From: Clostridia bacterium
GTDB taxonomy: Bacteria; Bacillota; Clostridia; Oscillospirales; CAG-272
Direction: 5' to 3'
Assembly (NCBI GenBank): GCA_017462605.1
Contig: JAFTQV010000061.1
Location: 24,262 to 88,261 of the forward strand
DNA: 64,000 bases
Shown here: piece by piece, positions 21,818 to 56,872 of the stretch
How positions within the stretch are numbered: position 1 is the stretch's first letter
How the letters are laid out: the number at the start of each line of letters is the position of its first letter
The notes under the pieces: generated by a model
The model's input: the letters and a program-made list of their open reading frames with translations, nothing else
Told to the model about the DNA's origin: nothing
Database searches by the model: none
Translations under genes and position numbers: made by a program

Positions 21818-21975
21818 CGCGCCGAGATCCTTCGTGGCGGTGTTTTTTCGTTGTCATTCTCGAGCGATCCGCGCCGAGATCCTTCACTTCGCCGAGATCC
21901 CTCGCTGTCATCCTTGAGCGAAGCGAAGGATCCCGAGGGAAATCGGCATCGTTCGAGGATGACGGCACGAGAGTA
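21818..21975. repeat. Intergenic REP-like element: three CGCCGAGATCC(T/C)TC direct repeats interleaved with GTCAT(T/C)CT..GAGCG inverted segments
   Basis: The direct-repeat copies start at about 21818, 21870 and 21890. GTCATCCTTGAGCG (21907-) is complementary to CGTTCGAGGATGAC (21950-). No ORF is supported here. Confidence 0.55.
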
Positions 21976-22206
21976 TCTCTTAACCTTTTTGTTAACTTAA
22001 TGACATCGGGATGTATTGATCTTAGTATTTTTTCATTGTTTTATCCTCTTTTCATTATATACGCCAAGGTTTGCATATGACCAATAATCGGGCATTATCA
22101 TAACTTATTTTTACATTTCGAGCAATTTTCCTTAAGCCGATCCTTGTCTATCCGAATATCAGGAAGAGCTGAATGTTTGATATATCCACCGAGGATCATC
22201 TGCATA

Positions 22207-36048: not shown

Positions 36049-36167
36049 ATTAATACCGCCCTTTCATATCAATAGTTTTTAATACATAATTATTATATCA
36101 TTCTGCGCGCGTGCGTGTCAATCGTTATTCTCAACAAGAATACAGGCTCTCTATTGAGCAAAATCAC

Positions 36168-36196
36168 TTGACAGAAGCGAGACTTCAGTCTATAAT
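36168..36196 (+). promoter_or_regulatory. Consensus sigma-A promoter
   Basis: TTGACA (36168-36173), a 17-nt spacer, then TATAAT (36191-36196), 28 nt before the ATG of 36225. Confidence 0.65.
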
Positions 36197-36224
36197 AAGG
36201 TAAAAAACACCGCAAAGGAGATCA

Positions 36225-36971
36225 ATGATGAGTAGTATATCAGGTCTTGTTTCAATATCCTTCAGAAAGCACTCTCCCGAAGAGATAATATCCCGAGTAA
36301 AGGCGGCAGGCCTTGAGGCGATAGAATGGGGCGGAGACGTCCACTCACCTCACGGCGATCTTGAGACCGCAAAAAGCATCCGCAGCATGACCGAAAAGGC
36401 AGGGCTTCTTATGCCCGAATACGGCTCGTATTATATCATCGGCAAGAGCGAGCCCGAGCTTTTCTCTGCCGTTCTTGATTCCGCAAACGCTCTCGGCACA
36501 AAAATTATCAGGGTATGGCCGGGAATGGGCATGCCGAGCGACACTATAAGCAATGAGCAATACGAGGCAATGGTAGCCGATGCAAAAAGAATATGCCTTC
36601 TCGCAAAGGACTTTACCGTGGCGCTTGAATGCCACCCTGCCTCTCTTACAGACGAATACCACAATGCCTTGGCATTCATTCGTGACGTTGGAATGGATAA
36701 CCTTAAAATGATGTGGCAGCCTAACCAGTACCGCCCTCTTGAATATAATCTTGACTCGATCAAAGCGCTCCTTCCTTACGTCGTTTCGGTTCACGTTTTC
36801 CACTGGTCAAGAAAGACCCGTCTTCCCCTCTCCGAAGGCAGAGCAGAATGGGAAAAATACATCTCTCTTCTCTCGGCAAAGGACTTGAATTATATGCTTG
36901 AATTCATGCCCGACGACAATATAGATACCCTCGCCCGCGAAGCAGAGACTCTAAAGAGTTTTTTAGTTTAA
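36225..36971 (+). CDS. Xylose-isomerase-like TIM-barrel protein (sugar phosphate isomerase/epimerase family)
   Basis: RBS AAAGGAG. The size (248 aa) and blocks EAIEWGGD, IIRVWPG, ALECHP and LEFMPDD fit the AP-endonuclease-2/TIM family. Confidence 0.6.
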   Translation: MMSSISGLVSISFRKHSPEEIISRVKAAGLEAIEWGGDVHSPHGDLETAKSIRSMTEKAGLLMPEYGSYYIIGKSEPELFSAVLDSANALGTKIIRVWPGMGMPSDTISNEQYEAMVADAKRICLLAKDFTVALECHPASLTDEYHNALAFIRDVGMDNLKMMWQPNQYRPLEYNLDSIKALLPYVVSVHVFHWSRKTRLPLSEGRAEWEKYISLLSAKDLNYMLEFMPDDNIDTLAREAETLKSFLV

Positions 36972-36983
36972 TTTCAAAAAGCA

Positions 36984-37012
36984 TTTACTTTTTTCTTAAA
37001 ACGTGCTATACT
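36984..37012 (+). promoter_or_regulatory. Putative promoter of the leader RNA / TIR gene
   Basis: TTTACT (36984-36989), a 17-nt spacer, then TATACT (37007-37012). The predicted start at about 37019 coincides with the first base of the long hairpin. Confidence 0.4.
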
Positions 37013-37018
37013 TATGTT

Positions 37019-37178
37019 GCGACGTAATTTAATAATCTTGAACCAAGGGTGTACTATGCCATTTAGTACTCCCAACTTTTCATATACTTGGTTCAAGATA
37101 GTTATGAATTGCGTCGCGGCGAAGTTGGAGTGCATAATGGGGTGCGTTCGCTTTGCGGACGCATCTTTTTTTATTTTT
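37019..37178 (+). ncRNA. Structured ~160-nt leader or small RNA ending in an intrinsic terminator, directly upstream of the TIR-LRR gene
   Basis: A 99-nt hairpin has a 13-bp lower stem (37019-31 with 37105-17) containing two U-G pairs that are valid only on the plus strand. It has a 3x5 internal loop, a perfect 13-bp upper stem (37035-47 with 37087-99) and a nested GUACUA/UAGUAC stem (37051-69). A terminator follows: GCGUUCGC-UUU-GCGGACGC (37144-62) plus U7 (37166-72). Confidence 0.55.
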
Positions 37179-37192
37179 GAAAGGACAAAGCT

Positions 37193-39316
37193 ATGACTCT
37201 TGAAACATCCAATTTAATCTGCAGAACCTGCGGTGGACAAGTAGAATTAGACGAAAGCCGAAAGCAAGGTAAATGTAGATTCTGTAAAAACGTTTATCAC
37301 TTTAAGAACGAGAAAAGCGAAGCGCTGATTCTTGCGCTAAACAGAGCAAATCTACATAGACAAAAATGCGATTTTCGCGAAGCTATCAAAGAATACCAAC
37401 TTATTATTGATAAAATGCCCAACGACTCCGAAGCGCACTTTGGTATGCTGCTTTCAGTGTTTGGAATTGAGTACGTTCGTGACCCTCGACTTGGCATATA
37501 TATGCCCACCTGCCACCGTTACGTCGAGGCAGACATTTTGAAGCATCCGTCCTATCTGGCCGCATTATCAAACTCCGCCACCGAACAACGTGAAAACTAT
37601 AAAGAGCAAGCAGAAGCTATTGCAATACTTTTGAAAAGAATAAAGCATCAGTTAGAAAAAGAAGAAGATTTCGACGTTTTCATATCCTTTAAATCAACCG
37701 ACGAGGACGGCAATCCCACAAAGGACAGATTAGTTGCAAGAAAAGTATACGACGAGCTTACCTCTCGAGGAATTAAAGTATTCTTCTCCGAGGTAACTTT
37801 AAAAAATCGGCTCGGCGATGAATACGAGCCGATAATATTCAAGGCTCTTATGAGCTGTAAAGCTTTCATATTAGTAGCCACTTCCGAAGAGAACATCAAT
37901 TCCGTTTGGGTAAAAAACGAATGGTCGCGATTTGAAGACAGAATACGCGACGAGCATTTAAACGGAACGTGGTTATCGGTATTCAACCCAAGCTGTCGCG
38001 ACTCACTTCCTTCATTTTTACATACTCAAGGAATTGATCTGTCAAAATACCCGGCAGGCGGTTATGAAATTGAGTTAGCCGATAACATTGAGCTTAAGCT
38101 CGGAAGAAAGAATCAAACTAATTACGTTACGGCAGATTTTGAAAAAGAATATAAAAAATGGCAAAAGGAAAAGAAAGATAAAAGAAAAGAAAAATGCAAG
38201 TTTTTCTTTAAAAAAACGTTTCCTTACATATCAGCTATATTGGCAATCTCTGCTATTGTATTCATTTCATTGCTCGTAAGAAGCTCTATTATCGATAACG
38301 AGCAAGCCACGGCTAAAATCGGAGTAGAATTGGCGCGGGAAGCGGCTGATAAAGGAGATTATTATACCGCTTATAATTACTATTCATCTCATAAAATACA
38401 AAAACTAAATGATTCAGCAATTGATCGCGAATTTAAATCATATGAGTACGCGGCTAATGGAGATTATTCAAACGCAACAAAGAACGGATTATCAAAAATT
38501 ATAATACACGATGGTGTCACCAGCATAAGCGTAGGAGCTTTCAGTGGATGCTCCGAACTCGAAAGTATAGTGATTCCCGACAGTGTCACTAGCATAGGCG
38601 TAGGAGCTTTCAGCGGATGCTCGTCGCTTCAAAGCATAACCCTTCCTTTTGTTGGACGATCCATATCAGATACTTATCAATACCCCTTTGGATATCTATT
38701 CGGTACTTCAACCTATGACAATGCTGTAAAAACCGAACAACACTATAAAAACGAATCCGGCGAAAAGGAATCTTATACCACCTTTTACATTCCCAAAACG
38801 CTTAAAACTGTTACAATAACCGGCGGATACATTCCGTATGGAGCATTCTCAAATTGCGAGGATATAGAAAGCATTATTATACATAACGGTTACGGTGTGA
38901 TTGGTGAAAAAGCATTTTCTCATTGTTCCTCATTAAAGGAGGTAAGATTTGATGATAACTGCAGCATAAACGAGATAGGATCCCAAGCATTTAGTAACTG
39001 TTCAAATTTGACTACATTTAAAATTCCAAGCGACGTGGATATTATACATGAGTTAGCGTTCTATCAATGTAGTAGTTTAAAAAGCATTATAGTTCCTAAG
39101 CAAGTATCAACTATACATAATGATGCGTTTTTGAACTGCAAAAGCCTCGGCGATTTGTATTTCGAAGGGACCTTACAGGATTGGTCAATAACCGTTGGAT
39201 CTTTTAACACATCTTTTGAAAATGCAGCCAAATATTATTACAGTGCAAATAATCCCCTTGATAAAGGCTTGTATTGGAAATACGATGAAAACGGAAAGGT
39301 CTATATTTGGAATTAA
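37193..39316 (+). CDS. Zinc-ribbon / TIR / single-TM / BspA-type LRR protein (TLR-like topology)
   Basis: RBS AAGGA. Ribbon CRTCGG...CRFCKN. TIR-like block DFDVFISFKSTDEDG...KVFFSE...AFILVATSEENINSVWVKNEWSRF. A Lys-rich stretch KKWQKEKKDKRKEKCKFFFKK precedes the TM helix FPYISAILAISAIVFISLLV (38219-38278). LRR units follow, such as IPDSVTSIGVGAFSGCSSLQSITLP. Confidence 0.8.
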   Translation: MTLETSNLICRTCGGQVELDESRKQGKCRFCKNVYHFKNEKSEALILALNRANLHRQKCDFREAIKEYQLIIDKMPNDSEAHFGMLLSVFGIEYVRDPRLGIYMPTCHRYVEADILKHPSYLAALSNSATEQRENYKEQAEAIAILLKRIKHQLEKEEDFDVFISFKSTDEDGNPTKDRLVARKVYDELTSRGIKVFFSEVTLKNRLGDEYEPIIFKALMSCKAFILVATSEENINSVWVKNEWSRFEDRIRDEHLNGTWLSVFNPSCRDSLPSFLHTQGIDLSKYPAGGYEIELADNIELKLGRKNQTNYVTADFEKEYKKWQKEKKDKRKEKCKFFFKKTFPYISAILAISAIVFISLLVRSSIIDNEQATAKIGVELAREAADKGDYYTAYNYYSSHKIQKLNDSAIDREFKSYEYAANGDYSNATKNGLSKIIIHDGVTSISVGAFSGCSELESIVIPDSVTSIGVGAFSGCSSLQSITLPFVGRSISDTYQYPFGYLFGTSTYDNAVKTEQHYKNESGEKESYTTFYIPKTLKTVTITGGYIPYGAFSNCEDIESIIIHNGYGVIGEKAFSHCSSLKEVRFDDNCSINEIGSQAFSNCSNLTTFKIPSDVDIIHELAFYQCSSLKSIIVPKQVSTIHNDAFLNCKSLGDLYFEGTLQDWSITVGSFNTSFENAAKYYYSANNPLDKGLYWKYDENGKVYIWN
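37667..38047 (+). other. TIR-like domain of the 707-aa protein
   Basis: Comprises aa ~159-285. The beta-A strand is VFISFKS, and the conserved Glu in WVKNEW is encoded at 37919-37921. Confidence 0.65.
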
Positions 39317-39342
39317 AGCAAATTATATCCACCTTTTAAACG

Positions 39343-39386
39343 GAGCTGCAACGAATCCATTTTCGAGCAGCTTTGTTTTATTTTTC
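39343..39386 (+). terminator. Terminator after the TIR-LRR gene
   Basis: GAGCTGC (39343-49) pairs with GCAGCTT (39367-73) around a 17-nt loop, followed by TGTTTTATTTTT. Confidence 0.5.
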
Positions 39387-39395
39387 GAGTTCGTA

Positions 39396-39424
39396 TTGAC
39401 AAATTCATCTTTTTGCGTTATAAT
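39396..39424 (+). promoter_or_regulatory. Perfect consensus sigma-A promoter of abiEi-abiEii
   Basis: TTGACA (39396-39401), a 17-nt spacer, then TATAAT (39419-39424). Confidence 0.7.
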
Positions 39425-39443
39425 AATCTCGGTTAGACTTTTT

Positions 39444-39460
39444 TGAACATTATTTGTTCA
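39444..39460. promoter_or_regulatory. Palindromic operator candidate TGAACA-TTATT-TGTTCA
   Basis: Lies between the -10 box and the RBS of abiEi. AbiEi antitoxins are known to autoregulate by binding inverted repeats in their own promoter. Confidence 0.45.
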
Positions 39461-39492
39461 TTCTTGTCAAGCAAATATATAGATAGGAGGGA

Positions 39493-40131
39493 TTGCCTTT
39501 GTTTACTAAAAAGCTAAAAGAAAGCTTCAAACTCAACGAGCCTATTTTCACAAGCGAAATACTTGAATCCTTGCCCGGCCTTTCTCGAGCCCGCATTTAT
39601 CAACTGATTTCAGATGCGGAAAAAAACGGTTATCTCGTTCGTTATGACAACGGCATATATTATATGCCCAAAAAGACGGAATTCGGACTATCAGTTCCAT
39701 CAGTTAACAGTGTTGTCGACAAAAAATATATAAAAGACAAAGGTAAGACCTTCGGTATTTACGGCAGATACGTTATGGAATTGAATTTCTCGGTAAGCAC
39801 TCAGGTTCCAAATGATATCGAAGTAATAACGAACAACGAATCCCGTAGGGTACGCGAAATATCTATAAGAGGCAGACGCGTTATTTTACGGAAGTCGAGA
39901 TTACCGATAACAAATGAAAACGAGGGCGCATATACCCTTATGGAGCTATTCAACAATATAGATATGAGGCAGTACCGAGAGGAACAACAAATACAGGATT
40001 CGGTATACGAATACGTCCGCAACAAAAAGATCACAAGAAAGGACATTCTGAGCTTAGCAGATGCTTTCCCTGCAAAAGCAATGAAAAACATAGCGCTAAG
40101 CGGAATTTTATATGAAGCTACACAACAATAA
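39493..40131 (+). CDS. abiEi: AbiEi-family type IV antitoxin / transcriptional regulator
   Basis: TTG start (39493, or 39499) after AGGAGGG. It has an N-terminal wHTH-like region and overlaps the AbiEii gene by 20 nt. The size and pairing are typical of AbiEi. Confidence 0.65.
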   Translation: MPLFTKKLKESFKLNEPIFTSEILESLPGLSRARIYQLISDAEKNGYLVRYDNGIYYMPKKTEFGLSVPSVNSVVDKKYIKDKGKTFGIYGRYVMELNFSVSTQVPNDIEVITNNESRRVREISIRGRRVILRKSRLPITNENEGAYTLMELFNNIDMRQYREEQQIQDSVYEYVRNKKITRKDILSLADAFPAKAMKNIALSGILYEATQQ

Positions 40132-41020
40132 AGAATCATTCAATGATCTGATTTCATTGGTAAGTGATTACTATAAAATCGATCCGGCTCTTATAGAGAA
40201 GGATTATTTTGTAACGCTTCTTTTAAAGAATCTTGCCTCTAGGGTTCCCGATCTTTTATTCAAGGGTGGTACGTCACTTTCAAAATGTCACAAAATCATT
40301 GATAGGTTTTCCGAAGATATTGATTTAACGTTAAACGATAATCAACAAACGCAAGGTAAGAAAAAGCAAATGAAAACCGCAATTTTAGAAGCCTGCGAGT
40401 CACTTGATCTTCGGTTAATGAACCCTGATGACATAAGAAGCAGGCGTGATTATAATTGTTACAGAATAGAGTACCCTATCCAACGTTACTCTGAAAGCAT
40501 CAAGCCGTTACTCTTAGTAGAAACTACTTATATCACAAGATCATATCCAAGCGAATATAAGCCTGCTACATCAATAATTTACGATTATTTAAAAGAGATC
40601 GGAAACCTTGAAGCGATAGAAAAATATGAGCTTGAACCATTTAGCATTCGCACTCAAACGCCGGAAAGAACATTGATCGATAAGGTTTTCGCAATATGTG
40701 ATTACGCGATAGGCCAGCGTATCGAAAGGAATTCAAGACATATTTACGACCTATCTAAGCTACTGAAAATAGTCGATCTCAACGAATCTTTAAAGAAGCT
40801 GGTAAAAGACATTCGTGCCGACAGAAAGACACATGCTTTGTGCTATTCAGCGCAGGACGGTGCAAATGTACCTCAATTGCTTTACGATATAATTAAATCC
40901 GAAATATATAAAGCAGATTACGAAACCGTTACTAAGGCTATGATGTTCAAATATTTACCTTATAGCGAAGCAATTAAGGCATTGGATAAAATCATATCAA
41001 GCGGTGCTTTTGAAAATTAA
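40112..41020 (+). CDS. abiEii: AbiEii/AbiGii-family nucleotidyltransferase toxin (DUF1814)
   Basis: Signature blocks LLFKGGTSLSKCHKIIDRFSEDIDLT and RTLIDKVFAICD...RHIYDL. Confidence 0.8.
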   Translation: MKLHNNKESFNDLISLVSDYYKIDPALIEKDYFVTLLLKNLASRVPDLLFKGGTSLSKCHKIIDRFSEDIDLTLNDNQQTQGKKKQMKTAILEACESLDLRLMNPDDIRSRRDYNCYRIEYPIQRYSESIKPLLLVETTYITRSYPSEYKPATSIIYDYLKEIGNLEAIEKYELEPFSIRTQTPERTLIDKVFAICDYAIGQRIERNSRHIYDLSKLLKIVDLNESLKKLVKDIRADRKTHALCYSAQDGANVPQLLYDIIKSEIYKADYETVTKAMMFKYLPYSEAIKALDKIISSGAFEN

Positions 41021-41030
41021 ATAAAGAACT

Positions 41031-41080
41031 GGCTCGAATGCAAAATAAATTCTGCGTTCGAGCCAACTTTTGTTATATTT
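41031..41080. terminator. Bidirectional terminator between abiEii and the convergent giant TIR gene
   Basis: GGCTCGAA-T-GCA...TGC-G-TTCGAGCC hairpin (41031-41064) followed by AACTTTTGTTATATTT. Confidence 0.6.
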
Positions 41081-41117
41081 GCTAACTATTAATTACAAAG
41101 ATTGGATTTTATTGAGT

Positions 41118-44100
41118 TCAGATATCCAACCACTTATACTTTTTTATATAGATTTCCGCATCGGCAAGCGAAGCAAAAAATCCGCTGACCCACTCGCTCT
41201 TAAAAGAGAATACAAGTCTCTCTCCCTCAGCAAGTGTGATAACGTATTGGCTTGGGTCGGCGCCCGCCGAGCGCTCGGCAGATTCGGTGTGTATCACCTC
41301 ACCGTTATCACCGTAAACGGTTAAAGTCATATTTATGACGGTCAACGCATCGTTAGAGGCAGCGGGAAGATAGTATATAGTATAATCTCCCGCCTCTTCG
41401 CAAAAGAACTCAAAATATGCAGTGGCTTCCGATCCCAGAGTGCAAGTGACCTTATAAGGCTCGTCAAGAGGGATCTCCTTAGGCACAGAAAGGCTCGTGC
41501 CCCGCGCATCACTCTCCCATCTTGCGTAGAGAGTGGTAGCCGTCTTGCTGTAATAATGCTCCGCATCGACCGCTCTTCCCGCAAATTCCGCATTATCGTA
41601 CCAGCCGATAAAATAGGACTTAGTCGGGTGACTTGGGGGTGCGGGAAGCTTGATTGCTCTTTGGTCGATTATGTCCGCGACAGCGCCGCCCTCGGTGACG
41701 AAGCGGTACGTGATGTAAGAGCCGTCGTAGCCGAAGATAACGGTAGGCTTATCACCTATCCAGCCCTCGTCCCAGCCCTCGGGTTTTTCCTCTGCCGCGC
41801 AGTAGATCACAACGTCAGCGGCATTCTCGATGATACTCGAGCTGACGGTAGTTACCGAAGCCGGAATATCGAGGGATTTAATGCCTATGCACGCCGCAAA
41901 TGCGCCTGCTCCGATGCTCTCAAGCATGGAATCGCGGGGGATGATAAACTTATTTATCGCGGTGCAGCTCGCGAATGCGTGCAGGCCTATGCTCTTCACG
42001 CTCTTCGGAAGCATAAATTCAACGAATGCCTTGCAGTATGCGAAAGCCTCTTGACCGATACTTGTCACTCCGTCCGGCAAGGTAGCCATGGAAAGCGACG
42101 TGCAGTTCGAGAAGGCAAGCTCGCCGATCTCGGTAAGATTATCGGGAAGATCCACGCTTTCAAGACTCGAGAAGCCATAGAATGCCTTGTCTGAGATCAC
42201 CTTCTCACCCGTGACGGTAACAGACTTAAGCGCGCCCGGAATGTAGTAGGTTGCATCAGAGCTCTCAATGACGTAAACGTTGCCGCCCGCAGATGACTGC
42301 CCGAAGAAATATCCAAGGACCTCTTCCTTAGCGTAATCGGTCGTCTCGGATGCGGTGCATCCAACGAAGGGGATAGTAAGCGATGAAAGCGAGAAGCAGC
42401 CCCCGAGGAAGCCGCGGGAAAGTGTCTTTGCGCCTCTTACGTCAAGGCTCTCGAGAGACGAGCAGCCAAGGAACGCTTCTTCTCCGATAAATTCAAGAGA
42501 GGTGGGAAGGATATTGGGATTTATCTCTTCGTCTCCCTGATAGATGTTTTTAAGAGCCGAGCAGCCGCTGAATGCACGGCCGCCTATTGAAGCAAGATCG
42601 GTAGGAACGTATATCGAGGTAAGACCCGAGCAGCCGCTGAATGCGTGCTCGGAGATCGCCTTAACGCCGTTGCCTAAAAGCACGTCCGTCAGATCGATCA
42701 TATTCTCAAAGGCGTAGGATACCACGTATCCGCCGTTATCTATCGCGATCACCTTAAGGTTTTTCGGAAGCTGATAGGTCCTCTCGCTCCAGCTATTGCC
42801 CTTTTCGTAATAATGCTGAGTGACGCCTACACTCGCAAGCACGGTATCGTTACCGTAATAGGTGGTATCAACTACCGAATATCTCTCCTCGCCGAAGAAA
42901 TAGCCTATCGGGTAAGCGTAAAGCACGTCAAGCTCCGCATCACCCGACTCGGGCGCTTCATCCGAAAGTCCCATAACGCCTGCCGAGGGGAACTTGACAG
43001 TCTCAAGGGAAACGCAGCCCGAAAGCATTCCGGGATAAAGCTCCTTTACCGAGCCGGGAATAGAGAGAGTCTTAATAAGATATCTGTTTTTGAAAATATC
43101 GGGAACTATTTCGTTAACCACAGCTCCCTTTATCGTCTTGGGGATGAAAAGCTCGTAGGTATTATTGGCAATGCTTGCGCTATCCTTCGGCTCATCGTCG
43201 GGCTTGCCCTTAAGTCCGATGAGAACGACGGTGCCGTCTGCCTTCTTGATCCACTCAAGTCCCGACGGAGTAATTCCATATTCAGAAGTAACGCCGTAAA
43301 ATACGGGTCTTTGTGCAGCATTCCAATCCGCGTCGAAATCAGCGGGTGCCTCGGCGCTTTCCATATAGACCTTGACATTTGGACTGCCTCTGAAAAGATC
43401 CTTGCTTACCTTGGTCAGGCTCGCGGGAATGAATACCGACTCAAGCGATGAGCAATTTGCAAAAGCTCCCTCTCCAACCTCGCTGACGGCGGCGGAAAGA
43501 GTGATCTTTTCTATGATCTCGTTGCCCGAGACGGCGCCATTATATAATTTATAGGTAGAGTTTTCGCCAAAGGACGAGGGAAGAGTCAGCTCCTTTGCAT
43601 ATCCAACGTAAGCAAAGAGTCCTTCCTCGGTATTATTCTCATCCGAGTAGCTTACGAAAACGAGTCCGTTATCGATAGTTACAACGCCCTTGGCATCGAT
43701 AGACTCAAGCTTATTAAGTATCTTATTGACCGCGCCGTCAAAAGCATTGCTCTCGGAATAAACGTCAAAAAGAGTGTGGCCCGAGTTAAATGCATTAGAG
43801 GAGACCGAAACTTCCTTCGCGCGGCAGATGACCGATATAAGCTTATCGCATCCGAGGAATGCGCCCGAATTAATGAGAGTAAGAGTCTCGGGAAGAGTGA
43901 TCCTCACAAGGCGTGACTCACCCGAAAACGCGCCGGAGCCCACGTAAGCCGTCTCGTATCCCGCGATCTTATCGGGAACGGTAAGGTCGTATGCCGAGCC
44001 GAAGTAAGCCTCGATGCTTGCAACGTCCTTTGTCTCAGCGGTCTCGCCCGACTGGATCTGAAGGCTCTTTATAACGTAGCCGAAGCCGTCATCGCTGACG

Positions 44101-47100
44101 CCGTCTATTTTCTTGACGTTATCCGAGGAAAGACCTGCGTTCCAATAGCTGTCCCACATACCGGTATTGACGCTGTAGCTCATATAAACGGCAGGGCTTG
44201 AACCGTAGAATATATTAGATCCCGCGCTTACGACCGATGCGGGGATATATACGTGAGTAAGATTTCCACACTGCGAGAAGGCTTTCATTCCCACCGAAGC
44301 TATACCCTCGGGAAGGATCACCTTCTTGATCGTATCGTTGCCGAAGAACGCCTCGTTTTCTATTCTGAGAACGTTATAACCGTCCAGCTTTTCGGGAATA
44401 TTCACTATACTGTCCGTACCCGTGTAGCCGATTATCGCAACTCCGTCGCCGTAAAGCTCGTATTCAATGCCTACGGTGCCGTAGCTCCACTTGGGTGTAA
44501 GGGTAGTATCCCAGACAACGAATGAATTCTCAAAATCCCATTTATTTCCAAATCCGTCATACCAGCCCTCGAAGGTGTATCCGGGGCGAATGAGGTTGCC
44601 GGGATCTTCGATCTTCTTAAACGCCTTGCTCGTCACAGGATCGATATTACCCCAACCCTCGGTCTCGAAGGTGACGGTATTTTCCTTGACAAAACCAACG
44701 TAAGCTCCTAGAAGAAGGATAGCCGCGATAAGCACCGCCGCGAATATTCTCGCCGCAGCCTTTTTGGTCTTCTGGCGTGAGAGCGCCTTCGTCTTAACGG
44801 TAACGGGTGAATAGAAGCTCTCGATCACGCCAAACTGAGGCATGATCTCCTTTGCCGCATTATTGTGTTTTCTCAGCTCCGGCAGGCAGGCGAACTTCTT
44901 CATATAGTCCTCTCTTCGGTTCTGGTGCGCGCTGTATACCGAGGAGAAATATTTATGCTGAGCATCGGTAGCCGAGTTGAGCGCCTCGCGGTATTCGGTG
45001 TATTCCTCAAGCTTTTTCTTCGAGCGGCAGATCTCGTAATCGTCGACCGCGTGAAGACGGCACTTGAGAAGTCCCCACCTGATGAGAGCGAGCATCTCGG
45101 ATCTCTTTGTCGGTCCTAACTGCTCTGTGAGAGTATCCGATTCGGTGATGACCGAATCCATATCGGTAAAGTAGGTCTTAGCCTCGGAAAATCTTCTCTC
45201 GAAGATCATGACCATAGCGATCTTATAGAGGAATTCGAGATAAGCCGCTTCGCCCTTTATACTGAGAACTCCGTTGCCCACACACTCTATAAAGGGTCTG
45301 TGATGCGAGAAGTTATTCTGTATCTGATAGGAGAGAAGGCGCATAAGGTCCTTGACCGTAACGTTCTCAAAATCGCACTTCGAGCAGATAAGTATTCTCT
45401 CTATGATCTCATCCTTATCGAGATCCTTCGGCTCCTTCTTGGATGCATCGTCATCCTTATTGATCTTAAGCTTGAAGGAGCGCATAGGAGATCCGCCGAG
45501 ACGGCAGCCGAGAAGGTTCCAGTACATCGCCGCCTCGTGGCTCGCCTTAAGATAGGTATTGAAATACTCTATCGCCTCTTTATAATATCCCGAGAAGTAG
45601 AGCGAATTTGCGAAATCACGCAAGAACGCCATATTGAAGGCGTTGTTTTCCGCTATGAAAAGCTTATCGCGGCAGGTCTCGTAAAGCGCCGTCGCAAATT
45701 TAAGATTGCCCGCCTTGACCGCATCGACCGTATGACCCTTGATGATATCAAGAAGATTTTTGATCGACTTATCGGGAATATACTTGGCAAGCACCTCAAG
45801 GAGCTTTACTATCTGATTATCGTTCTCAGCCTTCGCGACCTGATACATAAGCATATTGATCAGGTTATCGGTAAAGTCCTCGTCCGTGGGGTTATTTATC
45901 GCCGCCTCGAGAAGCGAGAATGCCTCGGGTCCTACCGACTTGAAGCTGTAAATAAGATCGGCAGGCTGAGTGATCTCGGTGGGAGAGGCTCCCCTTAAGC
46001 TTCCCGTTATATACTTATCGGGCAGCTTCACCTTGACCTTCGATAAGAACATACCGAAGTAAGCCTTACCGTTGTTCGGGTTCTCGTCCGCTATCTTCTT
46101 GAAGCTCTGGTATGCTATATTGTAATTCTTATTGACGAGGTAGAGGTTTGCGTTCTGCATCTCTCTCGCCTCGGACGCCGTGATATGAGTAATGGTCCTT
46201 GACTGACCTATGTTTACTCTCTTCTCGCCGGCTCCCGTATAGTCGAGCGACTCCTCGTCAAAGCCCTCGTTAAGCACTCTCGTGGGTATTTTCGCGCCCC
46301 TCTTTCCGCCCGGCTTGACGAATTCGAGCGCGCGGATAAGCTCATCCTTAAAGTTAAGGGAGAGCGCGTCTATCATAGTATGCTCTATCCTTCCGCCGAG
46401 AGCCGCAGGAAGCTTCGGAGGCTTGCCGAAGTAAACAATTATTAGCGAATTCGGCATTTTCTTGCCTCTGCCGATGAAGTACATATACCTCTTCCACTCG
46501 TTTTCAACCCAAGCGCTTTCAAGGTATTCATACTTGCTCGCGAGAAGCACCATTGCCTGAGAGGTCTGAAGAGCCTTAAGTATTCTCGGCTCATAGTCCT
46601 TACCCTTAAGGTTCTTATCATTGCCGATGGACTCGGGCGAGAAGAATACGTTATACTTCTTCTTTGTGAAAAGCTCGTAGATCTCCCTTGCAGTCTTGCA
46701 GTCCTGAGTCTCTATGGTCATCTCGCTGCCGTCTATCGTCTGAATTACGTCGCTCGACTTGAAGGAGATGAATATATTGTAAGCAGGCTCCTTATCAAGA
46801 AGCTCGAAGTGGCGGCGAAGTATACCGTCAAGCTCCTCGACCTGAGTGCGGTAGAAGTCCGCATCGCCCGACGTCGCCGCATTTTCGATAGCAAGCTTGA
46901 AATTATCGCTGCTCGCAAGCTCGTGACCCTTCTCATAGCTATGGTGGAAGAAGGTGGGCACAGGCACCTGCTTTGTCGCATCCGTAACGTATACTATTCC
47001 GTATTCGATAAGCAAGGACTGCCAGTAAAGCTCACCGCAGGCAGGATTTTTTCTCTTGTATTCGGTGCAAAGATCCTCTGCCTTGATGAAATCACGCAGC

Positions 47101-47258
47101 TGCCTGAAGCGGCTGATATCCCTGAGGTCGGCGGTGATGTCTTTATTTAAATTATCGTAGACCCTCTTACAGTATCGGCACTGCACCTTAATACTGTCGC
47201 GCGGAATGTCAAGAGGCGCGCCGCAGTGCAGACAATTGAGAGTGGCTGATGGATTCAT
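41118..47258 (-). CDS. 2046-aa zinc-ribbon / TIR / TPR-like / single-TM / LRR + Listeria-Bacteroides-repeat + PPC-like surface protein
   Basis: RBS AAAGGA. Ribbon CLHCG...CRYCKR. TIR-like block aa ~159-300. About 500 aa of helical repeats follow. A basic stretch plus TM (RQKTKKAAARIFAAVLIAAILLLGAYVGFV, ~44689-44750) comes next. Beyond it are YTFEGWYDGFGNKWDF-type repeats and many BspA LRR units (IPASVTTVSSS, LPDGVTSIGQEAFAYC...). There is no LPXTG motif. Confidence 0.85.
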   Translation of the reverse strand: MNPSATLNCLHCGAPLDIPRDSIKVQCRYCKRVYDNLNKDITADLRDISRFRQLRDFIKAEDLCTEYKRKNPACGELYWQSLLIEYGIVYVTDATKQVPVPTFFHHSYEKGHELASSDNFKLAIENAATSGDADFYRTQVEELDGILRRHFELLDKEPAYNIFISFKSSDVIQTIDGSEMTIETQDCKTAREIYELFTKKKYNVFFSPESIGNDKNLKGKDYEPRILKALQTSQAMVLLASKYEYLESAWVENEWKRYMYFIGRGKKMPNSLIIVYFGKPPKLPAALGGRIEHTMIDALSLNFKDELIRALEFVKPGGKRGAKIPTRVLNEGFDEESLDYTGAGEKRVNIGQSRTITHITASEAREMQNANLYLVNKNYNIAYQSFKKIADENPNNGKAYFGMFLSKVKVKLPDKYITGSLRGASPTEITQPADLIYSFKSVGPEAFSLLEAAINNPTDEDFTDNLINMLMYQVAKAENDNQIVKLLEVLAKYIPDKSIKNLLDIIKGHTVDAVKAGNLKFATALYETCRDKLFIAENNAFNMAFLRDFANSLYFSGYYKEAIEYFNTYLKASHEAAMYWNLLGCRLGGSPMRSFKLKINKDDDASKKEPKDLDKDEIIERILICSKCDFENVTVKDLMRLLSYQIQNNFSHHRPFIECVGNGVLSIKGEAAYLEFLYKIAMVMIFERRFSEAKTYFTDMDSVITESDTLTEQLGPTKRSEMLALIRWGLLKCRLHAVDDYEICRSKKKLEEYTEYREALNSATDAQHKYFSSVYSAHQNRREDYMKKFACLPELRKHNNAAKEIMPQFGVIESFYSPVTVKTKALSRQKTKKAAARIFAAVLIAAILLLGAYVGFVKENTVTFETEGWGNIDPVTSKAFKKIEDPGNLIRPGYTFEGWYDGFGNKWDFENSFVVWDTTLTPKWSYGTVGIEYELYGDGVAIIGYTGTDSIVNIPEKLDGYNVLRIENEAFFGNDTIKKVILPEGIASVGMKAFSQCGNLTHVYIPASVVSAGSNIFYGSSPAVYMSYSVNTGMWDSYWNAGLSSDNVKKIDGVSDDGFGYVIKSLQIQSGETAETKDVASIEAYFGSAYDLTVPDKIAGYETAYVGSGAFSGESRLVRITLPETLTLINSGAFLGCDKLISVICRAKEVSVSSNAFNSGHTLFDVYSESNAFDGAVNKILNKLESIDAKGVVTIDNGLVFVSYSDENNTEEGLFAYVGYAKELTLPSSFGENSTYKLYNGAVSGNEIIEKITLSAAVSEVGEGAFANCSSLESVFIPASLTKVSKDLFRGSPNVKVYMESAEAPADFDADWNAAQRPVFYGVTSEYGITPSGLEWIKKADGTVVLIGLKGKPDDEPKDSASIANNTYELFIPKTIKGAVVNEIVPDIFKNRYLIKTLSIPGSVKELYPGMLSGCVSLETVKFPSAGVMGLSDEAPESGDAELDVLYAYPIGYFFGEERYSVVDTTYYGNDTVLASVGVTQHYYEKGNSWSERTYQLPKNLKVIAIDNGGYVVSYAFENMIDLTDVLLGNGVKAISEHAFSGCSGLTSIYVPTDLASIGGRAFSGCSALKNIYQGDEEINPNILPTSLEFIGEEAFLGCSSLESLDVRGAKTLSRGFLGGCFSLSSLTIPFVGCTASETTDYAKEEVLGYFFGQSSAGGNVYVIESSDATYYIPGALKSVTVTGEKVISDKAFYGFSSLESVDLPDNLTEIGELAFSNCTSLSMATLPDGVTSIGQEAFAYCKAFVEFMLPKSVKSIGLHAFASCTAINKFIIPRDSMLESIGAGAFAACIGIKSLDIPASVTTVSSSIIENAADVVIYCAAEEKPEGWDEGWIGDKPTVIFGYDGSYITYRFVTEGGAVADIIDQRAIKLPAPPSHPTKSYFIGWYDNAEFAGRAVDAEHYYSKTATTLYARWESDARGTSLSVPKEIPLDEPYKVTCTLGSEATAYFEFFCEEAGDYTIYYLPAASNDALTVINMTLTVYGDNGEVIHTESAERSAGADPSQYVITLAEGERLVFSFKSEWVSGFFASLADAEIYIKKYKWLDI
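46359..46784 (-). other. TIR-like domain of the 2046-aa protein
   Basis: YNIFISFKSSD...NVFFSPESI...AMVLLASKYEYLESAWVENEWKRY. The conserved Glu254 codon is at 46497-46499. The block is collinear with the TIR block of the 707-aa paralogue. Confidence 0.65.
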
Positions 47259-47286
47259 TAGATCGATATCCTTTCGGTTTTAATTC

Positions 47287-48066
47287 TTAAAGGCGTCCCT
47301 TCGCCTTTCTGATAAAGTCAAGCACGATATCAGCGGGGATAGCGTAGTTCATACCCTCGGTCGCGCTTCCGTCGCGCTGGATACGGCTCGAAACTATAAC
47401 GCCGATTGCGATACCCTCTGAGTTGAAGATAGGTCCGCCCGAGTTACCGCCGTTGATAGCGCAGTCTGTCATCATAAGGGTATGGCCTGCAAGCTGGCGG
47501 CGCTTATCGCTGACGATACCGCTCGTGATACAAGTTCCGTCTCCGAGCGAATTTCCGACAACGTATACCTGCTCGCCGATGCGTACCTTATCAAAGTCTC
47601 CGATGACTATGGGAGATGCATCGTAGGGCACTCTGTCAAGCTTGATGAGAGCGAGGTCAACGCCTGCTCCTCTGCCGCCCTGATTATCGCCGAGAGCGAT
47701 GATCCTCGCTCCTATTCTCTCACCCGATATCGTTGCAACAACGGTATGGCAGGGGAGCGATTCATCGGTGACGACGTGAGTATTGGTGATAGCGTAGCCT
47801 TCTCTGTCAATAAGGAAGCCCGAGCCTGCCGAAGCGCCTCTGTGAGAGAGGCAGCTAAGCTCAAGGATACCCTTGATATTCTTCTCGAAAACGTCAACTC
47901 CCGAGGATACTCTCGGCGCAGGCGCAGCAGCGGGCGCGGGCGCGGTGGGAGCTGAAGCGGGAGCCTTCGGAGCTGCCGCATCATAGTCTATCTTCTTGCA
48001 AAGCTTGCATTTGAAAAATCCGTCCGGTGTCGGAATAAGGGGGCCGCCGCAGTTCTTACATTTCAT
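47287..48066 (-). CDS. Zinc-ribbon-fused cytoplasmic trypsin-like (S1/DegP-type, no PDZ) serine protease
   Basis: I prefer the ATG at 48064-48066 (MKCKNCGG), which has GGAGG 8 nt upstream. Ribbon CKNCGG...CKLCKK, then a Pro/Ala linker. Triad context TNTHVV / VDLALIKL / GNSGGPIF. No signal peptide. Confidence 0.8.
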   Translation of the reverse strand: MKCKNCGGPLIPTPDGFFKCKLCKKIDYDAAAPKAPASAPTAPAPAAAPAPRVSSGVDVFEKNIKGILELSCLSHRGASAGSGFLIDREGYAITNTHVVTDESLPCHTVVATISGERIGARIIALGDNQGGRGAGVDLALIKLDRVPYDASPIVIGDFDKVRIGEQVYVVGNSLGDGTCITSGIVSDKRRQLAGHTLMMTDCAINGGNSGGPIFNSEGIAIGVIVSSRIQRDGSATEGMNYAIPADIVLDFIRKAKGRL

Positions 48067-48086
48067 AGTCTCATCCTCCAAAAGTC

Positions 48087-49127
48087 TTAAGAGAGCTGCT
48101 TGCCGCAGCCCGAGCAGAACTTAGCTCCGCCCTTATTTTCAGCTCCGCAAGCGGGGCAAACGGTCTTTGCTATAGCGGTAGCCTTACCGCAAGCCGAGCA
48201 GAACTTAGCTCCGGGAGCAAGCTCGCCGCCGCAATTGGGGCAAAAGTTGCCTGCCTTGGGCGCGCCCGAATTTGCGTTTGCGCCCTTAAGCACCTCGTAG
48301 TAAGCCGCCTTATCGCGCATCTCAAGCTCGCGAAGGTATTTCTCGCGCTCCCAGTTCTTATCGTCAAGTCTCTCTTCCTCGGCGCGGCGCTCCTTATCGC
48401 TGAGAGTCTTCTTCATATTCTCGATATTATCCTCGATGAAGCCCTCAAGCTTCTCCTCGTCGCCCTCGGCGAGATTTATGCTGTTGATAATGAAGTTGGA
48501 AAGCTCTATACCCCACTGCGTGTCAAATTTCTTATTGAGTATGGGGGCTATAAGAGAAGCGATCATCTTCTTATCCGAGGTGAACTCTTCGTACGTAAGC
48601 TTCTTCTCGTGCGCCACCTGGCAGAATACGTCGCAGAATTCGTTGACTACCGCGCTAAGCACTCTTTCCTCGAAGTCCTCGCGGGAGAACTCACTCCTTG
48701 CGCCGCCGAGCTTCTTGAAGAACTGATCGTGATTTGTGATATTGATACCGAACTCACCGTTCGCTCCGATCTTAATGGTCTTGAAGCTGAAGGGATCGCG
48801 GTAAATAAATCTGTCCGGCGTGCCCCAGCAGATAACGATATCGGTCTCCTTGGGCATATAAACGACCTCGACCGAAAGACCCTTCTTCCAATCTCCGACC
48901 TCTCCTCTGGTATCGAAAACCTTATAGTTTCCGCTCTCGAGCAAACGGCAGTCTCCGCCGCCCTTGATAAGAAGAGCTACGTGAGTCATAGGAACCTCAA
49001 CGATGGCGTCCTTCTTCTCAACGATGGAATTGACTCTGACGAAAAGCACGTCGTTATCGTCCACCTTCGCGTTGCACATATTCTGATCAAACTTGATGAC
49101 CTGAGGCTTTTTATTAAAAAATCCCAT
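48087..49127 (-). CDS. SPFH (YdjI / COG4260-like) protein with a coiled coil and C-terminal double zinc ribbon
   Basis: MGFFNKK...WGTPDRFIYRDP...GANGEFGINITNHDQFFKKL resembles YdjI-type SPFH proteins. A charged coiled coil follows (KERRAEEERLDDKNWEREKYLRELEMRDK), then CPNCGG..CSACGK and CPACGA..CSGCGK. Confidence 0.65.
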   Translation of the reverse strand: MGFFNKKPQVIKFDQNMCNAKVDDNDVLFVRVNSIVEKKDAIVEVPMTHVALLIKGGGDCRLLESGNYKVFDTRGEVGDWKKGLSVEVVYMPKETDIVICWGTPDRFIYRDPFSFKTIKIGANGEFGINITNHDQFFKKLGGARSEFSREDFEERVLSAVVNEFCDVFCQVAHEKKLTYEEFTSDKKMIASLIAPILNKKFDTQWGIELSNFIINSINLAEGDEEKLEGFIEDNIENMKKTLSDKERRAEEERLDDKNWEREKYLRELEMRDKAAYYEVLKGANANSGAPKAGNFCPNCGGELAPGAKFCSACGKATAIAKTVCPACGAENKGGAKFCSGCGKQLS

Positions 49128-50826: not shown

Positions 50827-50860
50827 TATGTAAACTATTATTTGCTATATAACAATAATT

Positions 50861-50920
50861 AAGCCTACAAATAAGAGCTTGGTTTTTATTGCCGTGTTCT
50901 TATTCGTAGGCTTTTTATTC
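50861..50920. terminator. Bidirectional terminator between malQ and the convergent giant gene
   Basis: AAGCCTAC..ATAAGA...TCTTAT..GTAGGCTT hairpin (50861-50913) followed by TTTTATTC. Confidence 0.65.
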
Positions 50921-50933
50921 TAAATTGTTTTAT

Positions 50934-56691: not shown

Positions 56692-56795
56692 CTGTTCGGC
56701 GCAATTAACGGGGGTATTTGGTGTCCAAATTCCCCCGCGCCCCCAAAGACTGTTATGGCGCTCGATTTGCGGCTTATCCGCAAAAAACAAAAAAC

Positions 56796-56840
56796 GCGGC
56801 AGCTTGATACCAAAAAGGTTAAGCTGCCGCTTTATTGTTT
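56796..56840. terminator. Bidirectional terminator
   Basis: GCGGCAGCTT (56796-56805) pairs with AAGCTGCCGC (56821-56830). It is flanked by an A-run upstream and TTTATTGTTT downstream. Confidence 0.7.
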
Positions 56841-56872
56841 AATTGTTTTGTTGCCAAAGCGCCTCTGTAAAA

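What the first reader, a model, noticed from the sequence alone, without database searches (positions are those of the whole stretch)
37019..37178. Structured leader or small RNA with strand-specific G-U pairs and a terminator abutting the RBS of the TIR-LRR gene
Seen: a TTTACT-17-TATACT box would start transcription at about 37019, exactly at the foot of a 99-nt hairpin. The hairpin has a 13-bp lower stem, a 3x5 internal loop, a perfect 13-bp upper stem and a nested GUACUA/UAGUAC stem-loop. Both non-Watson-Crick pairs of the lower stem (T37025:G37111, T37030:G37106) are U-G on the plus strand and would be C-A mismatches on the minus strand. That argues for selection on a plus-strand RNA rather than a DNA palindrome. 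Apical-loop CCAACUU (37072-78) is complementary to AAGUUGG (37122-28) just 3' of the hairpin, which allows a pseudoknot or an alternative fold. An 8-bp GC-rich stem plus a U7 run (37144-37172) ends 2-3 nt before the RBS region of the TIR gene. Inference: this is either a transcription-attenuating leader, with TIR gene expression needing antitermination by a ligand, protein or RNA, or an independent ~160-nt sRNA. It does not resemble any riboswitch or T-box consensus I can recall.
Basis: partly seen in the sequence, partly recalled or inferred. Interest (0 to 1): 0.6.

Follow-up and report, generated by a model that had tools for sequence, protein, structure and literature searches.

The report
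Conserved hairpin-terminator leader RNA
The flagged hairpin plus terminator is a real, conserved RNA leader that is absent from Rfam; it starts exactly at its own promoter's start site and sits in front of promoterless genes for giant surface proteins in uncultured gut Clostridia, so it probably gates their expression.

Summary
A TGn-extended promoter (36984-37012) is followed by a 99-nt three-tier hairpin (37019-37117), a 21-nt linker, a strong intrinsic terminator (37139-37178), then the RBS and ATG (37193) of a zinc-ribbon/TIR/LRR_5 gene.

It is not a dispersed repeat and matches no Rfam family.

A covariance model built from the hairpin found three homologues, in L111, L115 and, more distantly, L113. 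All four loci share this layout:
- a sigma-70-type promoter whose -10 box ends exactly 6 nt before the first paired base;
- the same stacked helices, with compensatory changes in 9 pairs (structure-blind alignment) to 17 pairs (model-fitted alignment);
- a conserved AUGCCAUUU motif;
- a terminator;
- a large secreted LRR_5 or Flg_new protein gene with no promoter of its own.

The link to TIR is incidental. TIR homologues lack the leader, and the other three genes downstream of a leader have no TIR domain.

A sister strain lacks window 36944-41077. The leader therefore belongs to a strain-variable 4.1-kb island that also carries AbiEi/AbiEii.

Best reading: a new cis-acting attenuator leader. 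Whether read-through is regulated, and by what, is unknown. An independent sRNA is the main rival.

The parts
36944..41077 (.). Strain-variable low-GC island: leader, TIR-LRR gene, abiEi/abiEii and the right-hand terminator. A sister strain has 93 nt in its place.
   Evidence: Contigs L106-L110 (flanks 97-98% identical) run from window 36966 straight to 41078, across 93 nt that hold one bidirectional terminator hairpin. GC is 0.36-0.41 against about 0.49.
36984..37012 (+). Sigma-70-type promoter TTTACT-17-TATACT with a TGn extended -10 box. The predicted start is at about 37019.
   Evidence: In all four homologues the -10 box ends exactly 6 nt before the first base of P1.
37019..37031 (+). P1, 5' strand (pairs with 37105-37117)
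   Evidence: Folds. Compensatory changes in 3 of 11 pairs (A6) and 6 of 11 pairs (A8).
37035..37047 (+). P2, 5' strand (pairs with 37087-37099)
   Evidence: In L115 the sequence is entirely different (UUUUCCAAAUAAGG/CCUUAUUUGGAGAA) but pairing is kept.
37051..37069 (+). P3 apical stem-loop, GUACUA-UGCCAUU-UAGUAC. It contains AUGCCAUUU, which is conserved in all four homologues.
   Evidence: GGGTGTACTATGCCATTT is identical in the window, L111 and L115. AUGCCAUUU is also present in L113.
37070..37086 (+). Pyrimidine-rich bulge on the 3' side, UCCCAACUUUUCAUAUA. The motif CUUUUC(A/U)UAUAC is semi-conserved.
   Evidence: Alignment A6; folds.
37087..37099 (+). P2, 3' strand
37105..37117 (+). P1, 3' strand
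37118..37138 (+). Linker GGCGAAGUUGGAGUGCAUAAU. It can pair either with the 3' side of the apical region (37068-78) or with the top of the terminator's 5' arm, which makes it a candidate antiterminator.
37139..37178 (+). Intrinsic terminator: 13-pair stem at 37139-37167, a UUU loop, then U7AU5.
   Evidence: -18.5 kcal/mol. UGCGUUCGCUUUGCGG is conserved in L115 and nearly so in L111. All four homologues have a terminator here.
37180..37195 (+). RBS AAAGGA and the ATG (37193) of the downstream gene. No promoter lies between the terminator and the ATG.
37193..39316 (+). 707-aa protein: zinc ribbon, TIR, transmembrane segment, BspA-type LRR_5. This is the gene gated by the leader in this island.
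39493..41020 (+). abiEi (DUF6088) and abiEii, with their own promoter and terminator. They are co-resident in the island.

Best explanation
Window 37019-37178 is the leader of a small, previously undescribed family of structured 5' RNAs.

Transcription starts at the first base of a long three-tier hairpin (P1-P2-P3 with a conserved apical motif). After a roughly 20-nt linker it runs into a strong intrinsic terminator that lies directly before the RBS of a large, promoterless surface-protein gene.

Shown: the element, its promoter spacing, its helices and its terminator are conserved and covary across four loci. In this genome it belongs to a horizontally acquired island.

Inferred:
- Most transcripts stop at the terminator. 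They remain as a stable RNA of about 155 nt, with the 5'-terminal hairpin protecting the 5' end.
- The downstream gene is made only from read-through, so the leader acts in cis as a transcription attenuator.
- It also shields the island gene from the strong promoter of the upstream host gene.
- I think it more likely than not that read-through is conditional. A protein or small ligand would recognise the conserved apical loop and bulge and free the linker to pair with the top of the terminator's 5' arm. This step is speculation.
For: 1. Homologues. Model R1, built from the window hairpin alone, hits L111 371-484 (57 bits, E 4e-13) and L115 5510-5616 (35 bits, E 2e-7). Model R2 hits L113 7108-7296 (37 bits, E 1.5e-5). 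There are no other hits in about 1.8 Mb of fetched loci.

2. Transcript boundaries. In all four loci a TGn-extended promoter ends exactly 6 nt before P1: TTTACT/TATACT, TTGACA/TATAAT, TTGATT/TAAAAT and TTGACA/TATCAT. In all four a terminator follows, and no promoter-like site lies in the 25-58 nt before the next AUG.

3. Covariation.
- On the structure-blind MAFFT alignment A6, 91% of cells pair, against 39-48% when partners are slid. Nine pairs change on both sides, and 0 of 500 shuffles reach that.
- With L113 added (A8), 17 pairs change on both sides, against 1-4 for slid partners.

4. Strand. The + strand hairpin is more stable than the - strand in 4 of 4 loci. Window U37025:G37111 is C:G in L111.

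5. Not coding.
- The ORFs that start at the conserved AUG differ in frame and length (46, 28, 43 and 15 aa), because the indels are not multiples of three.
- The 60-aa ORF has no homologue among 1.84 billion representatives.

6. Downstream genes are all large secreted repeat proteins with different N-termini.

7. The leader is part of the island and not of the core 3' UTR.
Against: - There are only four sequences. Three are about 76-80% identical, so they may reflect a few recent transfers.
- Alignment A8 is fitted to the model, so its pair counts lean towards the structure.
- There are no transcript data for this uncultured organism.
- No convincing conserved antiterminator was found. The candidate helices are worth only -5 to -15 kcal/mol, against -17 to -20 for the terminators.
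- The loop-linker complementarity is strong in only two of the four sequences.
- A long hairpin with few conserved unpaired bases is not a typical metabolite aptamer.
- A leaky constitutive terminator would explain the layout equally well.
Confidence: 0.5

Rival explanations
1. Independent trans-acting sRNA gene of about 155 nt, with its own promoter and terminator. The downstream gene is merely adjacent and gets incidental read-through.
For: - The promoter and terminator are discrete and conserved.
- The 5'-terminal hairpin should give a stable RNA.
- The conserved single-stranded motifs (AUGCCAUUU loop, CUUUUCUAUAC bulge) could be seed regions.
- The element travels with different downstream genes.
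Against: In 4 of 4 loci it lies on the same strand as, and 25-58 nt before, a large ORF that has an RBS but no promoter of its own. A free-standing sRNA would not need that arrangement. No target is known.
Confidence: 0.22
2. The RNA is functionally coupled to the neighbouring AbiEi/AbiEii module. It could be a regulator, a decoy or a substrate of the AbiEii nucleotidyltransferase. The surface-protein gene would then be secondary.
For: All three loci that hold this AbiEii subfamily (76% identity) with enough flank carry the leader within 6 kb. They do so in two different gene orders: the window and L111 have leader-gene-abiE, and L113 has abiE-leader-gene.
Against: - L111 and L113 were fetched through AbiEii, and the three may simply share island ancestry.
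- abiE has its own promoter and terminator.
- The fetched L115 stretch (9.1 kb) shows the leader with no abiE upstream, and it ends inside the downstream gene.
- To my knowledge, AbiE is a protein-protein type IV system with no RNA component.
Confidence: 0.08
3. DNA-level element. The nested inverted repeats would be recombination or transposition sites: a MITE, a cwpV-like inverton, an att site or an attC-like site at the island's left end.
For: - The hairpin lies 50-75 bp inside the left junction of a 4.1-kb island.
- A 19-nt direct repeat (16/19 matches) links the hairpin bulge at 37072-90 with the right junction at 41063-81, and only 1 of 300 shuffles reaches that match.
Against: - The element is single copy, and no copies exist elsewhere.
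- There is no target-site duplication, and no recombinase in the window.
- The arms covary freely instead of being conserved as protein-binding sites would be.
- The interior has the same orientation in 4 homologues and in all the same-strain contigs read (3 of the 5 were aligned).
- The invertible spans of 39-74 bp are too short.
- The wobble pairs are valid on the + strand only.
- The promoter spacing is fixed.
- The ends do not fit the attC R''/R' boxes (sequence).
Confidence: 0.04
4. Highly structured mRNA for a small protein (type I toxin-like or a leader peptide), starting at the conserved AUG in P3 behind the SD-like AAGGGUG.
For: - AAGGGUG-N4-AUGCCAUUU is identical in three homologues, and AUGCCAUUU is present in all four.
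- The ORFs begin MPF in all four.
- The L111 peptide is hydrophobic.
- In the window the ORF's stop overlaps the TIR start (ATGA).
Against: - Frames are broken by 2-nt and 1-nt indels.
- Lengths are 46, 28, 43 and 15 aa, and the stops fall before, inside or after the terminator.
- L113 has no SD.
- There is no homologue in 1.84 billion proteins.
Confidence: 0.04

Closest known systems
cwpV leader switch of Clostridioides difficile (Emerson et al. 2009, PMC2784873)
   Same: A promoter is followed by a leader in which an intrinsic terminator stops transcription before a large cell-surface protein gene of a clostridial species. The gene is expressed only when the terminator is not formed.
   Different: cwpV is toggled by recombinase-catalysed inversion of 195 bp between 21-bp inverted repeats, and its terminator exists in one orientation only. 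Here the terminator lies outside the inverted repeats. The repeats covary like RNA helices, and no alternative orientation is seen in the 4 homologues or in the same-strain contigs read.
Terminator/antiterminator leaders of Firmicutes (riboswitches, T-boxes, and protein-dependent leaders such as PyrR, LicT and ANTAR targets; my own knowledge)
   Same: The order is promoter, conserved structured RNA, intrinsic terminator, RBS, gene.
   Different: It matches none of the 4227 Rfam models, even at E up to 10. The architecture is one long hairpin and not a multi-helix junction. No ligand or binding protein is known, and there is no clearly conserved antiterminator.
Type III toxin-antitoxin loci such as ToxIN (my own knowledge)
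   Same: A promoter, a structured non-coding RNA and a terminator that limits read-through into the next ORF. In this window that ORF is a TIR protein.
   Different: Type III antitoxins are tandem direct repeats processed by an endoRNase toxin. Here there is a single inverted-repeat hairpin. The homologous leaders precede non-toxin surface proteins.
Processive-antitermination leader RNAs (EAR of Bacillus eps, LoaP-dependent leader hairpins, HK022 put; my own knowledge)
   Same: A structured RNA at the very 5' end of transcripts for unusually long genes or operons, combined with leader terminators.
   Different: There is no match to EAR or any other Rfam model. No NusG paralogue was seen among the neighbouring genes examined. 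There is no evidence of downstream terminators being bypassed.

Membership tests
Any curated RNA family (Rfam 15) | Score at or above the family's gathering threshold | tested here: not met
   There are no matches at gathering score in the window or in L111, L113 and L115. The best sub-threshold hits are plant and animal miRNA hairpin models at 22-24 bits, against thresholds of 70-80.
Transcription-attenuating 5' leader (generic class) | Promoter upstream, intrinsic terminator between the start site and the ORF, and no other promoter for the ORF | tested here: met
   Consensus scans in all four loci. The distances from terminator to AUG are 25-58 nt. These are predictions only, with no transcript data.
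Transcription-attenuating 5' leader (generic class) | A conserved alternative (antiterminator) structure that excludes the terminator | tested here: inconclusive
   Hairpins between the linker and the terminator's 5' arm form in each sequence (-4.8 to -14.7 kcal/mol), but the register differs and there are too few sequences.
Riboswitch | Ligand-binding aptamer with a conserved core, and ligand-dependent switching | not testable with these tools
   This needs in-line probing or termination assays. Only the loop and bulge motifs are conserved.
Structured functional RNA (generic) | Helices supported by compensatory changes beyond controls | tested here: met
   A6 has 9 pairs changed on both sides, reached by 0 of 500 shuffles, against 0-2 for slid controls. 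A8 has 17 such pairs, against 1-4. Caveat: there are only four sequences.
MITE / REP-like dispersed repeat | Many copies at unrelated loci, terminal inverted repeats and a target-site duplication | tested here: not met
   There is one copy in 64 kb. There are no true copies in the public collections. The three homologues all sit in the same functional position, and the flanks show no duplication. The rest of this genome was not available.
cwpV-type invertible switch | A DNA segment between inverted repeats found in both orientations, with a recombinase | tested here: not met
   Orientation is the same in the 3 same-strain contigs aligned and in the 3 homologues. The window holds no recombinase. 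Read-level data could not be tested.
Type III toxin-antitoxin | Tandem direct repeats as RNA antitoxin, with a ToxN/AbiQ-like endoRNase downstream | tested here: not met
   The leader has no direct repeats. The downstream proteins are TIR/LRR_5, Big_2/LRR_5, S8/LRR_5 and Flg_new.
Retron ncRNA (msr-msd) | An adjacent reverse transcriptase | tested here: not met
   No RT domain was found in the neighbouring genes scanned. The TIR protein matches the retron-TIR model only over its TIR domain (31.6 bits against a cut-off of 600).
Type I toxin / leader-peptide mRNA | A conserved small ORF in a conserved reading frame | tested here: not met
   Frames and lengths are not conserved, and there are no homologues.

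The most novel reading that the evidence does not exclude
The element is a new class of signal-responsive RNA: a riboswitch or the target of a dedicated RNA-binding antiterminator. It would switch on mobile 'cassettes' that encode giant BspA/LRR surface proteins in gut Clostridia, and it would be functionally linked to the AbiE abortive-infection module that accompanies it. For example, phage infection or AbiE activity would be the signal, or the RNA would be a substrate or decoy of the AbiEii nucleotidyltransferase.
Probability: 0.12. Interest if true: 0.8.

Novelty: new variant of a known kind. Interest (0 to 1): 0.55.

Why it matters
BspA-type LRR and Listeria-Bacteroides-repeat proteins are among the largest and most variable surface proteins of gut Firmicutes. 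Almost nothing is known about how uncultured Clostridia control them.

This leader is conserved and covarying. It travels with such genes in strain-variable islands next to an Abi system. That makes it a concrete, testable regulatory handle and a candidate new family for Rfam.

If read-through turns out to be signal-dependent, it would define a new sensor RNA, or a new RNA-protein antitermination pair, tied to surface remodelling or phage defence.

If it is only a leaky terminator with a 5' stabiliser, it still shows how acquired genes are insulated from host transcription.

Tried and rejected
1. Dispersed repeat or assembly artefact.
- The exact upper-stem pattern gave 0 hits in genome and viral contigs. 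The 9 hits in metagenome contigs were all unrelated palindromes.
- The arms (13-34 nt) are far shorter than the assembler's k-mer. The sequence is identical in the same-strain contigs from three samples that were read.

2. Leader upstream of TIR homologues. P0002, P0003, P0004, P0021 and P0068 have short or unrelated upstream regions.

3. Synteny in GTDB relatives of the AP_endonuc_2 gene. The best is 66% identical, with no synteny and no leader.

4. Terminator as the native terminator of the upstream core gene. Rejected: the sister strain has a different terminator, and the whole leader is island DNA. The apparent similarity of the two terminators is at chance level (p 0.59).

5. The 46/60-aa ORF as a gene. 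It has no homologues and its frame is not conserved.

6. Viral relatives of the TIR and AbiEii proteins: none. Plasmid and phage searches with the three leaders and with AbiEii: nothing useful.

7. Motif scans of viral contigs. They gave 41 + 16 + 17 loci, nearly all chance matches. Only L115 is a true member.

8. A shared AbiEi operator. The arms of P2 are each CTTG-N3-CAAG palindromes, and the abiE promoter region has CTTGTCAAG and a TGAACA/TGTTCA dyad. These dyads are not conserved in the abiE promoters of L111 and L113, and P2 covaries freely, so this idea was dropped.

9. Pairing of the P1 strands with the terminator arms as a switch. It is seen in the window and L111 but not in L115, so it is not conserved.

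Full report
**1. The observation**

- A promoter-like TTTACT-17-TATACT with a TG dinucleotide before the -10 box lies at 36984-37012.
- Six bases later a hairpin begins. P1 is 37019-37031 with 37105-37117 and includes the two U-G pairs 37025:37111 and 37030:37106.
- P2 is 37035-37047 with 37087-37099, 13 perfect pairs.
- P3 is GUACUA 37051-56 with UAGUAC 37064-69.
- A 17-nt bulge lies on the 3' side.

The 166-nt region folds at -68.1 kcal/mol with z = -7.7. The hairpin alone gives -42.8 kcal/mol on the + strand and -34.9 on the - strand. After correction for GC it is the most extreme 100-nt fold on the + strand of the 64-kb window.

The terminator is stronger than described. Its stem has 13 pairs at 37139-37167 (-18.5 kcal/mol), followed by U7AU5. 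It ends two bases before the RBS AAAGGA of the ORF that starts at 37193. That ORF encodes a 707-aa protein with a zinc ribbon, a TIR domain, a membrane segment and BspA-type LRR_5 repeats.

**2. Not a repeat, not a known RNA**

- The window holds no second copy.
- The upper-stem pattern has no true match in genome, viral or metagenome contigs.
- The leader has no match in plasmids or phages.
- Rfam 15 gives nothing at gathering score, and only miRNA-hairpin noise at E up to 10.

The same locus occurs on several contigs of the same strain. The contigs from three samples that were read show no substitution in the leader, so they carry no comparative signal.

Five TIR homologues at up to 60% identity have no comparable upstream region.

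**3. The leader belongs to an acquired island**

A 98%-identical variant of the upstream AP_endonuc_2 protein lies on five contigs of a sister strain whose flanks are 97-98% identical. In those contigs, window 36967-41077 is replaced by 93 nt. That stretch holds a single bidirectional terminator hairpin.

Divergence rises from 36944 on the left, and stays raised until about 41240 on the right. This fits import by homologous recombination from a more distant lineage.

The region is also low in GC: 0.36-0.41 against about 0.49.

The promoter, hairpin and terminator are therefore island DNA, together with the TIR-LRR gene and an AbiEi/AbiEii pair. They are not the 3' UTR of the core gene. The 93-nt empty-site segment shows only chance similarity to the island ends.

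**4. Homologues**

I fetched two loci through relatives of the island's AbiEii that are 76% identical to it. A covariance model made from the window hairpin alone (R1) hit L111 371-484 at 57 bits, E 4e-13.

The 18-nt apical motif shared by the two sequences then led to a viral-collection contig. L115 5510-5616 scores 35 bits, E 2e-7.

A three-sequence model (R2) found a more distant member, L113 7108-7296, at 37 bits, E 1.5e-5. It found nothing else in about 1.8 Mb of fetched DNA.

None of the homologues matches Rfam.

**5. What is conserved**

- *Promoter spacing.* In all four loci a sigma-70-type promoter with a 17-nt spacer and a TGn extended -10 box ends exactly 6 nt before the first paired base of P1. 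The -10 box ends and P1 starts at 37012/37019, 364/371, 5503/5510 and 7100/7107. L111 has a perfect TTGACA-17-TATAAT.
- *Architecture.* All four fold into the same P1/P2/apical arrangement.
- *Covariation.* P2 of L115 and P1 of L113 have entirely different sequences but keep pairing.
  - On the structure-blind alignment A6, 91% of cells pair, against 39-48% for slid partners. Nine pairs change on both sides, and 0 of 500 shuffles reach that.
  - On the model-fitted four-sequence alignment A8, 17 pairs change on both sides, against 1-4 for slid partners.
- *Sequence motifs.* P3 and its loop are identical in three members, and AUGCCAUUU occurs in all four. The spacer RAAUAU between P1 and P2, the bulge motif CUUUUC(A/U)UAUAC and the linker motif G(G/A)AGU recur.
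- *Terminator.* Each locus has a strong terminator of -17 to -20 kcal/mol. An RBS and the AUG of a large ORF follow 25-58 nt later, with no promoter-like site in between.
- *Strand.* The + strand hairpin is the more stable in 4 of 4 loci.

**6. Not coding**

ORFs begin at the conserved AUG in all four. However, 2-nt and 1-nt indels break the frame, the lengths are 46, 28, 43 and 15 aa, and the stops fall at different places. The window ORF has no homologue among 1.84 billion representative proteins.

**7. Downstream genes**

| Locus | Downstream protein |
|---|---|
| Window | TIR + LRR_5 |
| L111 | 1532-aa lipoprotein-like, Big_2 + LRR_5 |
| L115 | at least 1134 aa, subtilase S8 + Flg_new + LRR_5 |
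| L113 | 1071 aa, Flg_new + DUF6273 |

The common denominator is a very large secreted repeat protein, not TIR. The window protein's LRR part is 35% identical to the C-terminus of the L111 protein. Its N-terminal half resembles TIR proteins that normally sit in Band_7/trypsin operons, such as the 2046-aa paralogue next door. From this I infer that the 707-aa gene is a mosaic.

**8. Mechanism**

Shown: a conserved RNA unit that runs from its promoter's start site to a terminator and is placed in front of promoterless genes.

Inferred:
- The 5'-terminal hairpin, with no single-stranded 5' overhang, should stabilise the RNA.
- Most transcripts should end at the terminator.
- Downstream expression requires read-through, so the unit is an attenuator.
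- In this island the unit also blocks transcription arriving from the perfect promoter of the upstream host gene (36168-36196).

Whether read-through is regulated is open.
- In each sequence the linker can pair with the top of the terminator's 5' arm, but only at -4.8 to -14.7 kcal/mol and in shifting registers.
- The linker is also complementary to the 3' side of the apical region. This is strong in the window (-16.8 kcal/mol, 3.7% of shuffles) and in L113 (-17.7, 0.3%), and weak in L111 and L115.
- These features are compatible with a three-way switch, but four sequences cannot prove one.

**9. Rivals**

- *Free-standing sRNA.* This is the main alternative. It does not explain the invariant position before promoterless ORFs.
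- *Functional link to AbiE.* The co-occurrence is 3 of 3 loci, in two gene orders. However, it is confounded by how the loci were found.
- *DNA-level readings (MITE, inverton, att/attC).* These are disfavoured by the single-copy status, the freely covarying arms, the constant orientation, the fixed promoter spacing and the lack of a recombinase. A 16/19 direct repeat between the hairpin bulge (37072-90) and the right junction (41063-81) remains unexplained.
- *Small-protein or type I toxin reading.* This fails on frame conservation.

**10. Comparison with known systems**

The closest described system is the cwpV leader of C. difficile. There an intrinsic terminator in the leader silences a large surface-protein gene (PMC2784873), but that switch works by DNA inversion.

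The layout equals that of riboswitch, T-box or protein-dependent attenuators, and of type III toxin-antitoxin loci. Membership of each specific family was tested and not met; the membership table gives the details.

**11. Verdict**

This is a genuine conserved structured RNA, and a new family within the known kind 'terminator-containing 5' leader'.
- Confidence that it is a real conserved RNA element: about 0.85.
- Confidence that it acts in cis as an attenuator of the downstream gene: about 0.5.
- Confidence that read-through is signal-dependent: lower.

The interest is moderate. It would rise sharply if a ligand, a protein partner or a coupling to AbiE were shown.

Noticed in passing
window 36944-41077 versus L106 6741-6833: Presence/absence polymorphism of a 4.1-kb low-GC island (leader, TIR-LRR, AbiEi/AbiEii) between two strains whose flanks are 97-98% identical. 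The empty site holds one long bidirectional terminator hairpin (-33 kcal/mol). Flank divergence is raised up to about 41240.
   Followed up: yes
window 37072-37090 and 41063-41081: Direct repeat CCAACTTTTCATATACTTG / CCAACTTTTGTTATATTTG (16/19 matches; 1 of 300 shuffles reaches this). Each copy follows a hairpin stem that ends in CC, and the right copy straddles the island junction. Its meaning is unknown.
   Followed up: partly
window 36152-36227: Five substitutions within 76 nt separate this window from other contigs of the same strain. They lie in the divergent promoter region between the 1050-aa gene and AP_endonuc_2. One converts the ATG at 36225 to ATA, so the gene is called one codon shorter elsewhere.
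   Followed up: no
window 41118-49127 (- strand): Operon of a Band_7 + double-zinc-ribbon protein, a trypsin-like protease and a 2046-aa zinc-ribbon/TIR/Flg_new/LRR_5 protein. The same gene set surrounds TIR homologues in other metagenomes, sometimes with AAA/nSTAND or BrxL-like ATPases or MACPF. It may be an uncharacterised conflict system.
   Followed up: partly
window, L111 and L113: All three loci with this AbiEii subfamily (76% identity) carry the leader plus a giant surface-protein gene within 6 kb, in two different gene orders. Both extra loci were fetched through AbiEii, so ascertainment bias applies.
   Followed up: partly
window 39388-39475: The abiE promoter is a perfect TTGACA-17-TATAAT. 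It is followed by the dyad TGAACAttattTGTTCA and by CTTGTCAAG, a likely AbiEi operator. The -35 and -10 boxes are conserved in L111 and L113, but the dyads are not.
   Followed up: partly
window 37137-37196: A 19-codon ORF (MGCVRFADASFFIFERTKL) lies behind a GGAG Shine-Dalgarno sequence. It runs through the terminator, and its UGA overlaps the TIR gene's AUG (AUGA). L111 has an analogous AUGGGG start, but L115 and L113 do not.
   Followed up: partly
L115 904-4512: In the IMG/VR contig, the genes upstream of the leader are a LexA/CI-like repressor, an ion channel, a HIRAN protein and a large serine recombinase. This leader-gene unit therefore sits at the edge of an integrative element or prophage.
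   Followed up: no
L113 6940-7060: Two tandem units of about 57 nt lie between abiEii and the leader promoter. Each is a hairpin AACGCTCG...CGAGCGTT followed by CTATAATAAAA.
   Followed up: no
window ~21880-21990, ~50816-50930, ~56760-56860: Other intergenic spots with exceptional GC-corrected folding energy. At least the last two look like convergent or bidirectional terminators. The 730-nt gap around 21.9 kb was not examined.
   Followed up: no
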